This document shows positions 58,110-59,501 of a DNA stretch of 64,000 bases, piece by piece. Source of the DNA: Thermodesulfobacteriota bacterium (lineage in GTDB: Bacteria; Desulfobacterota_D; UBA1144; Nemesobacterales; Nemesobacteraceae); assembly GCA_965209225.1 (NCBI GenBank), contig OZ242379.1:934762-998761 (forward strand), given 5' to 3'. A program made the translations under genes and the position numbers. Numbering within the stretch: position 1 is the stretch's first letter; each line of letters opens with the position of its first letter. A model generated the notes under the pieces. It did no database searches. It saw only the letters and a list, made by a program, of their open reading frames with translations, and was not told the DNA's origin.

Positions 58110-58352
58110 ATGACCGGACGGGAATACTGGCTGAAGCGGCAGATTTGAAAACGTGATTGACTTTTAGTCGTCCAGATATAAAATACAGTTATGACTGGAC
58201 GGGAATACTGGCTGAAGCGGCAGATTTGAAAACGTGATTGACTTTTAGTCGTCCAGATATAAAATACAGTTATGACTGGACGGGAATACTGGCTGAAGCG
58301 GCAGATTTGAAAACGTGATTGACTTTTAGTCGTCCAGATATAAAATACAGTT
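58110..58352. repeat. three tandem 81-bp repeats, each = first 31 nt of the downstream ATPase ORF + its 50-bp promoter (TTGACT-16-TAAAAT)
   Basis: Copies start at 58110, 58191, 58272; the gene itself starts at 58353 with the near-identical atgatcagacgggaatactggctgaagcggc. Confidence 0.95.
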
Positions 58353-59501
58353 ATGATCAGACGGGAATACTGGCTGAAGCGGCTTCAGGATGCTTGGTAT
58401 CGCCGTTCCATTGTCTGGCTCGCCGGAGTAAGGAGGACGGGCAAGACCACTCTGGCAAAAATGCTGCCTGAGACAATTTACCTGAACTGCGACCTGCCTT
58501 CCACGCAGAGAATCCTGCTGGATCCCGAGCTGTTTTTGCGTAGCAACCCGACTGATAAACTTCTGATTCTAGATGAAGTTCATCAATTGGCGGATCCGAG
58601 TCTGTGTCTTAAGATTATGGCGGATGAATATCCTGAAATGCGTGTACTGGCTACTGGTTCGTCCACACTTAACGCTACGCGCAAGTTCCGCGACACGCTT
58701 GCGGGACGCAAACGTTCCATTCGTCTGCTTCCGGTTCTCTGGCGCGAATGCGTTGAGGAATTCGGAATAAAGGACCTTGACCGCCGCCTGCTCCATGGTG
58801 GTCTGCCGGAACCGCTGCTGTCCGAAAATATAGACCCGTCTTTCTACCGTGAGTGGATAGACAGCTTCTACGCTCGGGACATTCAGGAACTTTTCGCCGT
58901 GCGCAACAGGCAGGGATTTCTCTCATTGCTGCGCCTGCTGTTGCGCCGGAGCGGAGGGCAGGTGGACTATGCGCGTCTGGCATCTGACAGTGGATTGAGC
59001 CAACCTACCGTAAAGACTCATATGGAGTCCATGCGGATCGCCTGTGCGATACATTTTGTCCCGCCCTTTCATGGCGGCGGAAAACGGGAGATAGTGGCCC
59101 GCCCGAAGTGCTATGCGTTTGATACCGGGTTTGTCTGCCACGAGAGGGGCTGGGATTCAATAAGGGATGAGGATCGTGGTCTGCTCTGGGAGCATCTAGT
59201 GCTTGACGCGTTGCGCAGTTGCCACGCGGATGACTCTATCTTTTACTGGCGGGACAAGTCGGGCCGCGAGATAGACTTTGTCGTACGTCGCGGACGAGAA
59301 CGTGTGGATACGATAGAATGCAAAATCAATCCTGAAAAGTTGACTACAACGGCTACGGAAGTTTTTCGCGGCTATTACCCCGAAGGGGACAATTACGTGG
59401 TGAGCCCAGGTGTCGGGACATCTTACGGCATCCGCAGAGGCAGCCTGACGTACACGGTCTGCGCTCCTGACAGCGAGCCGGGCTGGCCGCGCATTCCATG
59501 A
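58353..59501 (+). CDS. AAA+ ATPase with DUF4143 (COG1373 family)
   Basis: Walker A GVRRTGKTTL, Walker B LLILDEVH, C-terminal DUF4143 region. Confidence 0.85.
   Translation: MIRREYWLKRLQDAWYRRSIVWLAGVRRTGKTTLAKMLPETIYLNCDLPSTQRILLDPELFLRSNPTDKLLILDEVHQLADPSLCLKIMADEYPEMRVLATGSSTLNATRKFRDTLAGRKRSIRLLPVLWRECVEEFGIKDLDRRLLHGGLPEPLLSENIDPSFYREWIDSFYARDIQELFAVRNRQGFLSLLRLLLRRSGGQVDYARLASDSGLSQPTVKTHMESMRIACAIHFVPPFHGGGKREIVARPKCYAFDTGFVCHERGWDSIRDEDRGLLWEHLVLDALRSCHADDSIFYWRDKSGREIDFVVRRGRERVDTIECKINPEKLTTTATEVFRGYYPEGDNYVVSPGVGTSYGIRRGSLTYTVCAPDSEPGWPRIP

What the first reader, a model, noticed from the sequence alone, without database searches (positions are those of the whole stretch)
58110..58400. 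81-bp tandem triplication that repeats the promoter plus the first 31 nt (start codon included) of a DUF4143 AAA ATPase gene
Each unit is atgacYggacgggaatactggctgaagcggc followed by agatttgaaaacgtgaTTGACTtttagtcgtccagataTAAAATacagtt, and the real gene begins with the same 31 nt (atgatcagacgggaatactggctgaagcggc). Each copy therefore offers a consensus-like -35/-10 placed about 6 nt before an ATG (near-leaderless) and could express a 12-aa decoy peptide (MTGREYWLKRQI). It looks like a very recent slippage or duplication event that may tune expression.
Basis: seen in the sequence. Interest (0 to 1): 0.55.

Follow-up and report, generated by a model that had tools for sequence, protein, structure and literature searches.

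The report
Tandemly repeated promoter before defence-like ATPase
An 81-base block holding a promoter and the first 31 bases of a candidate phage-defence ATPase gene is repeated three times in front of that gene in an uncultured Dadabacteria genome; it is a real, evolutionarily dynamic promoter minisatellite of a kind already known from other bacteria.

Summary
Window 58108-58383 holds 3.4 head-to-tail copies of an 81-nt unit. Each unit is the first 31 nt of the AAA_14/DUF4143 ATPase ORF (X) plus a 50-nt promoter-like segment (Y: TTGACT-16 nt-TAAAAT-6 nt-ATG).

The event is not simply recent. Related Dadabacteria genomes keep the same folB-ATPase-folK synteny and the same X|Y junction. They carry no extra unit, one decayed extra unit, or arrays with three intact promoter segments, so the founding duplication is old. 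Copies within one genome are nearly identical, whereas arrays of different genomes differ by 14-18%. That indicates continuing expansion, contraction or gene conversion.

The promoter geometry without a Shine-Dalgarno site is conserved across phyla in about 86 loci of this gene family, and part of it is palindromic. This supports a near-leaderless, self-contained expression cassette. The duplication itself occurs only in the Dadabacteria branch. The ATPase matches the unvalidated defence candidate PDC-S01.

Most likely reading: a promoter tandem repeat (VNTR) that changes transcription of the ATPase and perhaps of downstream folK. No effect on expression has been tested. The closest known kind is the 54-58-bp promoter tandem repeats upstream of leaderless genes in M. 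tuberculosis. It is a new member of a known kind, of modest interest.

The parts
58110..58190 (+). Repeat unit 1. X1 (58110-58140) is a copy of ORF nt 1-31, ATGACCGGACGGG...; Y1 (58141-58190) is the promoter-like segment.
58191..58271 (+). Repeat unit 2 (X2 58191-58221, Y2 58222-58271), identical to unit 3.
58272..58352 (+). Repeat unit 3 (X3 58272-58302, Y3 58303-58352). Y3 is the promoter next to the gene.
58353..58383 (+). The gene's own first 31 nt (Xg), which form the partial fourth copy. It differs from X2/X3 at nt 5-7.
58157..58184 (+). Sigma-70-like site 1: TTGACT-16-TAAAAT, ending 6 nt before the ATG at 58191.
58238..58265 (+). Sigma-70-like site 2, ending 6 nt before the ATG at 58272.
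58319..58346 (+). Sigma-70-like site 3, ending 6 nt before the real start at 58353.
58110..58148 (+). Decoy mini-ORF MTGREYWLKRQI-stop. The same ORF recurs at 58191-58229 and 58272-58310.
58168..58202 (+). Inverted repeat TCGTCCAG / CTGGACGG plus inner UAUAA / UUAUG. It spans the -10 element and the next ATG, and recurs at 58249-58283. At the gene-proximal junction the outer arms are broken.
58353..59501 (+). ATPase gene, 382 aa, with AAA_14 and DUF4143 (PD-(D/E)XK) domains. It matches the PADLOC candidate PDC-S01 (3.5e-54).
58374..58388 (+). Palindrome CTGAAGC-G-GCTTCAG. The right-hand breakpoint of the founding duplication (end of X) lies at its centre.
   Evidence: and direct reading
58083..58109 (+). 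Remnant of the original outermost promoter segment (Y0), mostly deleted and without a -10 element. It is homologous to the degenerate Y0 of relatives.
56358..58070 (-). Insertion sequence (approximate limits) with a DDE transposase ORF at 56564-57937, flanked by the 13-nt direct repeat GTCCGGCGGCCAG (56345-56357 and 58071-58083). It lies between folB and the array and is absent from all relatives.
59621..60031 (+). folK (HPPK), probable TTG start, 120 nt downstream of the ATPase stop. It could be co-transcribed from the array promoters.

Best explanation
This is a promoter tandem repeat, a minisatellite (VNTR).

Origin (inferred). An ancestral Dadabacteria genome carried one self-contained cassette: a -35 hexamer, a 16-nt spacer, a -10 hexamer, 6 nt, then the start codon, with no Shine-Dalgarno site. 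An illegitimate duplication copied 81 nt, namely the promoter plus the first 31 nt of the ORF. Its right breakpoint lay at the centre of a short palindrome inside codons 8-12.

Turnover (shown by comparison). The 81-nt homology then allowed unequal crossing-over, slippage and gene conversion. The array therefore expanded, contracted or was lost in different lineages, and the copies within each genome were kept nearly identical.

Effect (inferred, untested). In this window three intact promoter copies face the ATPase gene. Each is expected to fire and to start a transcript at or next to an ATG. Only the proximal promoter would give an mRNA whose 5'-terminal AUG opens the ATPase ORF. The two distal promoters would give transcripts that begin with a 12-codon decoy ORF and read through into the ATPase gene and probably into folK-hpt-pepF. 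The net effect would be a heritable and reversible change in transcription of this candidate defence gene and its downstream neighbours. The IS inserted just upstream blocks read-through from folB, so these promoters are likely the only drivers here.
For: The array is real.

Promoter geometry: three identical sites matching 10 of 12 consensus positions. Another gene in the window (62411-63256, minus strand) has TTGACA-17-TATAAT-7-ATG, so sigma-70-type leaderless arrangements occur in this genome. Across the family, 56 of 86 loci have a -10-like hexamer 5-9 nt before the start, only 1 of 86 has a Shine-Dalgarno-like site, and TACTTTACA lies 38-39 nt before the ATG in 66 of 86 loci from Pseudomonadales, Acidobacteria, Bacteroidales and others.

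Old founding event with a shared junction, and different copy states: no extra unit in L010/L019, L011, L012, L013, L020 and L021; one decayed extra unit with the start codon lost in L017 and L018; three promoter segments in L014, L015/L005 and the window.

Concerted evolution: Y copies differ by 0-1 nt within a genome and by 7-9 of 50 nt between genomes. X copies match their own gene's synonymous variants, with 0-1 mismatch in L014 and L015. A recombinant X type is present in L008.

Three k=31 Logan contigs of the closest relatives (96-98% protein identity) all start 26-28 nt before the ATG. For L119, whose sequence there matches the window, this is where an array copy differing at nt 5 would create a graph branch.

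Y (promoter) is less diverged than array X between the window and L015: 14% against 26%.

The IS is absent in relatives. A known precedent exists: 54-58-bp promoter tandem repeats with copy-number variation upstream of leaderless genes in M. tuberculosis (PMC12817950).
Against: There are no expression data and no transcription start sites. The promoter is a consensus match only.

Extra copies decay when they are single: the ATG is lost in L017 and L018, and the -10 of the outermost Y0 is destroyed in the window and in L015. So extra copies are not individually under strong purifying selection.

If mRNAs are leaderless, distal promoters should add little ATPase protein, which weakens a simple 'more promoters, more protein' model.

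The 1, 2 or 3 copies seen within one species (identical protein P0003) come mostly from short-read assemblies, one of which has an N gap in the array (L003), and could partly reflect repeat collapse.

The long-read genomes of this sub-clade that carry an array (L014, L015) both show three promoter segments, as does the window. This could mean a stable state rather than a rapidly switching one.
Confidence: 0.6

Rival explanations
1. Neutral minisatellite. The duplication and its turnover are by-products of replication slippage and recombination at a hairpin-prone site, with no effect that selection sees. The array persists because it is harmless.
For: Single extra copies decay: start codon lost in L017 and L018, and the outermost Y0 loses its -10. 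The array is absent in close relatives L012 and L013, which are interleaved with array-bearing lineages in a rough tree. The duplication is found in only one branch among about 95 family loci. The decoy peptide is not conserved.
Against: Three lineages that differ by about 9% all keep three intact, homogenised promoter segments. Y is less diverged than array X. A second, unrelated gene in the window (Fic) keeps a triple promoter-proximal repeat across species.
Confidence: 0.25
2. Operator array. The conserved, partly palindromic element that overlaps the -35 and -10 hexamers is the binding site of a regulator, possibly the ATPase itself through a helix-turn-helix-like stretch (GLSQPTVKTHMESM). 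Extra copies would act as additional or decoy operators that change the set point of autoregulation.
For: The non-coding element TACTTTACATTTAGACGTCTAAATGTAAAGTA is conserved across phyla although the proteins share only 50-69% identity. This is more than a -35/-10 pair needs, and it also holds in Bacteroidales, which use a different promoter consensus. A perfect 14-16-bp palindrome ATTTAGACGTCTAAAT is present in L010, L011, L020 and in Y0 of L017.
Against: In the window's own units the palindrome is degraded (7 of 13 positions, direct reading). Across 86 loci only the left half is strongly conserved, and arm complementarity is about 55%. No DNA-binding domain could be confirmed: the AlphaFold model has pLDDT 46 and there is no PDB relative beyond the AAA+ core.
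Confidence: 0.2
3. RNA-level device. Each Y/X junction folds into a hairpin (8 + 5 bp) that buries the AUG in read-through transcripts. The array would then be a chain of decoy start sites and hairpins that controls translation of long transcripts, while only leaderless transcripts are translated.
For: 88.9% of cells pair in 16 distinct junction sequences, against 25-45% when the partner is slid. Some changes are compensatory or wobble-compatible: CGTCTAA/TTAGACG, CGTCTGA/TCAGACG, CGTCCAG/CTGGACG. Folding z-scores are -3.0 (L010) and -2.6 (L018).
Against: Covariation is not above the shuffle controls (217 of 500 for the score and 183 of 500 for pairs changed on both sides). The pairing is not conserved outside Dadabacteria. 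The window unit has a z-score of only -1.18. In the fold of the whole array the real AUG is not clearly more open than the decoys. If the mRNA is leaderless, the 5' arm is not transcribed.
Confidence: 0.1
4. Assembly artefact. The triplication was created or inflated by the assembler.
For: Tandem repeats of identical units are a classic source of mis-assembly, and one relative has an N gap in the array (L003).
Against: Homologous arrays with lineage-specific substitutions occur in independent assemblies, including closed long-read chromosomes (OZ244920.1 = L015; CAXXCU010000001.1 = L014). Unit 1 carries its own SNP. The window spans a 1.7-kb IS, which suggests long-read contiguity.
Confidence: 0.03

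Closest known systems
Promoter tandem repeats (PTRs) with copy-number variation in Mycobacterium tuberculosis (dop, lpdA-glpD2, cysG-efpA; PMC12817950)
   Same: Head-to-tail repeats of tens of bp (54-58 bp there, 81 bp here) that duplicate a promoter immediately upstream of genes with leaderless-type promoters. Copy number differs between lineages. Short-read assemblies obscure them.
   Different: Here the unit also includes the start codon and 31 nt of coding sequence, so every copy is a complete promoter-plus-start module with a decoy mini-ORF. Variation within populations and effects on expression have not been shown here. The host is an uncultured Dadabacteria lineage, and the target is a candidate defence gene.
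MIRU-VNTR minisatellites of mycobacteria
   Same: Tandem units of 40-100 bp in intergenic regions that can overlap the start or stop codons of flanking genes and contain small ORFs. Copy number is polymorphic.
   Different: MIRUs are a dispersed family present at many loci. This unit is found at one locus only and derives from the gene's own promoter and 5' end.
Simple-sequence-repeat contingency loci (for example Haemophilus and Neisseria; PMC12721329, PMC8262952 listed)
   Same: Repeat-number changes in promoter or 5' regions give heritable, reversible variation in expression.
   Different: Those units are 1-9 nt long and act by changing promoter spacing or reading frame. Here whole promoters are multiplied and the change is expected through recombination between 81-nt units.
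PDC-S01 candidate defence gene family (AAA ATPase + PD-(D/E)XK; PADLOC; PMC12988326)
   Same: The gene downstream of the array matches the PDC-S01 profiles (3.5e-54) with the same two-domain architecture.
   Different: PDC-S01 is a candidate only, with no experimental validation reported in the papers read. Neither the conserved upstream element nor tandem promoters were found described for it in the papers searched.

Membership tests
Promoter tandem repeat / VNTR minisatellite | Head-to-tail repeats with a unit of roughly 10-100 bp | tested here: met
   Period 81, 3.4 copies, 97% matches; unit alignment.
Promoter tandem repeat / VNTR minisatellite | The unit carries promoter elements of the downstream gene | tested here: met
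   Three TTGACT-16-TAAAAT sites. The geometry is conserved in the single-copy relatives and across the family. This is a sequence-level match only; no TSS data.
Promoter tandem repeat / VNTR minisatellite | Copy number differs between related genomes | tested here: met
   No extra unit (L012, L013, L019, L021 and others), one decayed extra unit (L017, L018), three promoter segments (L014, L015, window).
Promoter tandem repeat / VNTR minisatellite | Copy number varies within a species or population (phase-variable) | tested here: inconclusive
   1, 2 and 3 units occur among contigs encoding the identical protein P0003, but most are short-read assemblies and one has an N gap. The recombinant unit in L008 supports real allelic diversity.
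Promoter tandem repeat / VNTR minisatellite | Expression depends on copy number | not testable with these tools
   Needs reporters or transcriptomics.
Leaderless (or near-leaderless) gene | -10 element ending about 6-8 nt before the start codon, with no Shine-Dalgarno site | tested here: met
   TAAAAT ends 6 nt before each ATG. 56 of 86 family loci have a -10-like hexamer 5-9 nt upstream and 1 of 86 has a Shine-Dalgarno-like site.
Leaderless (or near-leaderless) gene | Mapped transcription start at the start codon | not testable with these tools
   No transcript data.
MIRU-like dispersed minisatellite family | The same unit is present at many loci in the genome | tested here: not met
   The Y segment is found only at this locus in the 64-kb window. 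In relatives it is found only upstream of this gene. The whole genome was not available.
CRISPR array | Conserved repeats separated by different spacers | tested here: not met
   The segments between the X copies are identical to each other.
Simple-sequence contingency locus | Repeat unit of 1-9 nt | tested here: not met
   The unit is 81 nt.
PDC-S01 candidate defence system (the gene, not the repeat) | Match to the PADLOC PDC-S01 profiles, with AAA ATPase and PD-(D/E)XK domains | tested here: met
   PDLC04789 at 3.5e-54 over residues 1-351; AAA_14 and DUF4143; DUF4143 is listed in the PD-(D/E)XK superfamily (PMC3424549).
PDC-S01 candidate defence system (the gene, not the repeat) | Protects against phage | not testable with these tools
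Operator / iteron-type binding-site array | Repeated copies of a specific protein-binding site | tested here: inconclusive
   The element is conserved across phyla, but the palindrome is degraded in the window units and no DNA-binding domain was confirmed.

The most novel reading that the evidence does not exclude
The array is a selected switch rather than a passive repeat. In these Dadabacteria, defence-type genes would carry triplicated promoter/operator modules: the PDC-S01-like ATPase here and the SoFic-like Fic gene at 417-1598, which has a 40-nt x3 repeat that stays at three copies across species. The number and sequence of these modules would be reshuffled by recombination. That would set the level of costly defence proteins, or the autoregulatory threshold through the conserved palindromic element. 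The mobile PDC-S01 cassette would carry its own host-independent leaderless promoter/operator across phyla.
Probability: 0.15. Interest if true: 0.6.

Novelty: new member of a known kind. Interest (0 to 1): 0.37.

Why it matters
The finding gives a clean natural example, outside pathogens and in an uncultured phylum, of a whole promoter-plus-start-codon module multiplied in tandem in front of a candidate defence gene. The full evolutionary series is visible: no duplication, one decaying duplicate, and homogenised arrays.

It also exposes a conserved upstream element of the very common but uncharacterised PDC-S01 / DUF4143 ATPase family. The element has no Shine-Dalgarno site, is partly palindromic, and is conserved across phyla. 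It is a concrete handle for testing how these genes are expressed and regulated.

On the practical side, such arrays break or collapse short-read assemblies, so copy numbers in MAGs should not be trusted without long reads.

Tried and rejected
- Exact-protein look-ups of the window's ATPase and Fic proteins found nothing. Close relatives had to be reached through homologues.
- A JGI metagenome scan with a degenerate Y pattern gave 0 hits. A viral-contig scan found no relative of the ATPase.
- Rfam at E<=1 over 55500-60500 gave no match.
- Hairpin between the promoter spacer and codons 2-4: well paired, but covariation is no better than the shuffles and it is absent outside Dadabacteria. It is kept only as a minor rival.
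- Idea that decoy AUGs are sequestered while the real AUG is open: not supported by the fold of the whole array.
- Idea that the conserved element is a terminal inverted repeat of a mobile cassette: the motif occurs only upstream of the gene (58 hits within -100..0, no consistent 3' copy).
- Link between the IS and the array: rejected, because relatives have arrays without the IS.
- A shared TAGACGT motif between the ATPase and Fic promoters: 9 matches in the window against 3.45 expected, mostly the repeats themselves, so not informative.
- Structure prediction of the ATPase from 13 sequences gave pLDDT 46 and was unusable, so no fold search was run. PDB sequence and profile searches hit only the RuvB AAA+ core.
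- CRISPR, simple-sequence-repeat and MIRU-type classifications were rejected on their defining features.
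Full report
**1. The observation**

Tandem Repeats Finder reports a single array at window 58108-58383: period 81, 3.4 copies, 97% matches, no indels, score 524. Laid out from the first ATG, the units are 58110-58190, 58191-58271 and 58272-58352. Units 2 and 3 are identical and unit 1 differs by one base.

- Each unit has two parts. X (31 nt) is ATGACYGGACGGGAATACTGGCTGAAGCGGC. Y (50 nt) is AGATTTGAAAACGTGATTGACTTTTAGTCGTCCAGATATAAAATACAGTT.
- The ORF that follows (58353-59501, 382 aa; AAA_14 1.9e-22, DUF4143 6.4e-30) begins with the same 31 nt except at nt 5-7 (ATGATCAGA).
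- A consensus scan finds three identical TTGACT-16-TAAAAT sites, each ending 6 nt before an ATG.
- Each unit reads MTGREYWLKRQI-stop.
- The Y segment occurs nowhere else in the 64 kb.

**2. Organism and setting**

Close homologues of the ATPase (80-98% identity) come from MAGs titled Candidatus Dadabacteria or Thermodesulfobacteriota, with chromosomes of 1.6-2.4 Mb. All show the same gene order: SDR, folB, ATPase, folK, hpt, pepF, and a Y1-transposase-like gene.

In the window, a 1.7-kb insertion sequence sits between folB and the array. It carries a DDE transposase ORF at 56564-57937 on the minus strand and is flanked by a 13-nt direct repeat at 56345-56357 and 58071-58083. No relative has it. 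With the IS removed, the window's folB-ATPase spacer aligns with that of L005 apart from a deletion of about 150 nt. The IS is therefore unrelated to the origin of the array. It must, however, block any read-through from folB.

**3. The same locus in relatives**

| State | Loci | ATPase identity to the window | Details |
|---|---|---|---|
| No duplication | L010/L019, L011, L020, L021 | 80-90% | TTGACA, the palindrome TTTAGACGTCTAAA, TATAAAAT, 6 nt, GTG start |
| No duplication | L012, L013 | 94%, 92% | Single promoter segment |
| One old extra unit | L017, L018 | 94%, 90% | The X copy has lost its start codon (TTAGTT.., GCAGTT..) |
| Array with three intact Y copies | L014, L015 = L005, and the window | 96% | L014 and L015 are long-read assemblies |

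The X|Y junction (..GCGGC|AGATTTGAAAA..) is the same wherever a duplicate exists. This indicates one founding duplication that predates the split of lineages now about 9% apart over the downstream genes. In a rough tree, genomes without the duplication are interleaved with array-bearing ones, which implies secondary losses.

Among contigs encoding the identical protein P0003, I see 1 unit (L006/L016), 2 units (L001, L004, L008) and 3 units (L002, L007, L005), and one scaffold with an N gap inside the array (L003). Most of these are short-read assemblies, so variation within the species is suggestive but not secure. L008 carries a recombinant X type, which is real allelic diversity.

Three k=31 Logan contigs of the nearest relatives (96-98% identity) begin 26-28 nt before the ATG. 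For L119, whose sequence there matches the window, this is where an array copy differing at nt 5 would create a graph branch.

**4. Concerted evolution**

- Y copies differ by 0-1 nt within a genome and by 7-9 of 50 nt between genomes.
- Array X copies in L014 and L015 carry their own gene's lineage-specific synonymous variants (0-1 mismatch to their own gene, 3-7 to other genomes).
- In the window the array X differs from its own gene at 3 positions.

The arrays have therefore been expanded or homogenised independently after the lineages split. 'Recent' applies to the homogenisation, not to the founding event.

Between the window and L015, Y (14%) is less diverged than array X (26%). This fits some constraint on the promoter part and none on the decoy coding part. 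The outermost original promoter (Y0) has lost its -10 in the window and in L015, and it is deleted in L014.

**5. The cassette across the family**

In 86 loci of the family, the upstream region shows one conserved design. The proteins are 50-69% identical to the window's and come from Pseudomonadales, Pyrinomonadaceae, Bacteroidales and many metagenomes.

- TACTTTACA lies 38-39 nt before the ATG in 66 of 86 loci. The consensus is taTACTTTACATtTaG.Cg.ctaaat.g.AAat.
- 56 of 86 loci have a TAnnnT hexamer ending 5-9 nt before the start. 38 of these also have a -35 with at least 5 of 6 matches at 16-18 nt spacing.
- Only 1 of 86 loci has a Shine-Dalgarno-like site.
- In its best-preserved form the element is a long palindrome, TTTACATTTAGAC|GTCTAAATGTAAA. 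Its outer halves are the -35 and -10 hexamers. Across all loci the left half is much better conserved than the right.
- The motif is found only upstream of the gene, never as a 3' partner, so it is not a terminal inverted repeat.

This supports the near-leaderless reading. It also shows that the gene travels with its own expression and regulatory module. Other genes in the window use GGAGG-type Shine-Dalgarno sites, but the Y1-transposase-like gene has TTGACA-17-TATAAT-7-ATG, so both initiation styles exist in this genome. The tandem duplication of promoter plus 5' coding sequence occurs only in the Dadabacteria branch among about 95 loci examined.

**6. The gene**

The ATPase matches the PADLOC candidate PDC-S01 (3.5e-54). 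DUF4143 belongs to the PD-(D/E)XK superfamily and has no known function (PMC3424549). PDC-S01 is described as very common, repeatedly transferred between domains and not yet validated (PMC12988326). No solved structure is related beyond the AAA+ core. My AlphaFold model was too poor to use (pLDDT 46).

**7. Mechanism**

*Shown.* This is a real tandem array of complete promoter-plus-start modules, with an old origin, lineage-specific turnover and concerted evolution.

*Inferred.* The right breakpoint lies at the centre of the palindrome CTGAAGC-G-GCTTCAG (58374-58388). This fits a hairpin-assisted illegitimate duplication. Later changes would arise by unequal crossing-over, slippage and gene conversion between the 81-nt units.

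*Inferred and untested.* All three promoters fire. The proximal one yields the leaderless ATPase mRNA. The distal ones yield transcripts that start with a 12-codon decoy ORF and read through, since no terminator-like site is predicted inside the array. This would add transcription to the ATPase gene and to folK-hpt-pepF.

The closest described phenomenon is the 54-58-bp promoter tandem repeats with copy-number variation upstream of leaderless genes in M. tuberculosis (PMC12817950).

**8. Rivals**

- Neutral minisatellite (0.25). Single extra copies decay, the array has been lost in close relatives, and it is confined to one branch.
- Operator array for an autoregulator (0.2). Conservation of the element across phyla exceeds what a promoter needs. 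However, the palindrome is degraded in the window units and no DNA-binding domain could be confirmed.
- RNA hairpin or decoy-start device (0.1). A 13-bp two-part hairpin pairs the -10 region with the next start codon and codons 2-4. It pairs in 88.9% of cells, against 25-45% for slid controls, but covariation is not above the shuffles. It is absent outside Dadabacteria, and the whole-array fold does not single out the real AUG.
- Assembly artefact (0.03). Independent long-read assemblies of related species argue against it.

**9. Verdict**

This is a promoter tandem repeat (VNTR), a new member of a known kind. It has two features worth recording: every unit carries the start codon and 31 nt of coding sequence, and the promoter it multiplies is a leaderless-type cassette of the PDC-S01 family that is conserved across phyla. 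Interest is modest (0.37). It would rise if copy number proved to vary within populations and to set the level of a working defence protein.

Noticed in passing
window 1600-1718 (gene 417-1598, minus strand): A second promoter-proximal tandem repeat: 40 nt x 3, 100% identical. It ends 1 nt before the ATG of a Fic gene that matches the SoFic defence profile (1.9e-115). Each unit holds a 9-bp inverted repeat TATATTAAA/TTTAATATA. Relatives (89-95% protein identity, L034-L038) also have exactly three copies, but diverged, so the triple arrangement is conserved.
   Followed up: partly
window 56345-58083: An insertion sequence of about 1.7 kb. It has a 457-aa ORF on the minus strand (56564-57937; only a weak DDE_Tnp_1 hit, E 0.04), terminal inverted repeats ..GAATTCCCACTA / TAGTGGGAATT.., and a 13-nt direct repeat GTCCGGCGGCCAG on both sides. 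It is absent from this spacer in all relatives examined.
   Followed up: partly
loci L022-L118, 30-45 nt upstream of the ATPase start; window 58155-58190 for the local version: A conserved non-coding element (consensus taTACTTTACATtTaG.Cg.ctaaat.g.AAat, palindromic in its best forms) lies 38-39 nt before the ATG in 66 of 86 family loci from several phyla. Almost none has a Shine-Dalgarno site. The papers found here on PDC-S01, DUF4143 and COG1373 were checked only around those terms, and those passages do not mention it.
   Followed up: partly
window 55744-60031: The ATPase gene sits between folB and folK, which are usually neighbours, in every Dadabacteria relative found. In some lineages an additional block of about 300-400 nt with a terminator-like hairpin (56289-56309) lies between folB and the ATPase promoter.
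   Followed up: no
window 62411-63256 (minus strand): An IS200-like Y1 / REP-associated tyrosine transposase-like gene (Pfam 7e-08; NCBIfam 4.3e-13, below the cut-off) is conserved in synteny in all relatives. It has a near-consensus TTGACA-17-TATAAT ending 7 nt before its ATG, a leaderless-type arrangement.
   Followed up: no
window 58374-58388: The palindrome CTGAAGC-G-GCTTCAG in codons 8-12 of the ATPase. The end of the duplicated segment falls exactly at its centre. Genomes without the duplication have a different palindrome (AATCGATT) at the same place.
   Followed up: partly
L018 3001-4366: In the closed genome OZ219878.1 the ATPase match spans 1366 nt instead of 1146. This suggests an insertion or disruption in that copy, and it also distorted my distance tree.
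   Followed up: no
L009, L119, L120 (first 30 nt): Three independent Logan (k=31) contigs of the closest relatives all begin 26-28 nt upstream of the ATPase ATG. This shows how such arrays fragment short-read assemblies.
   Followed up: yes
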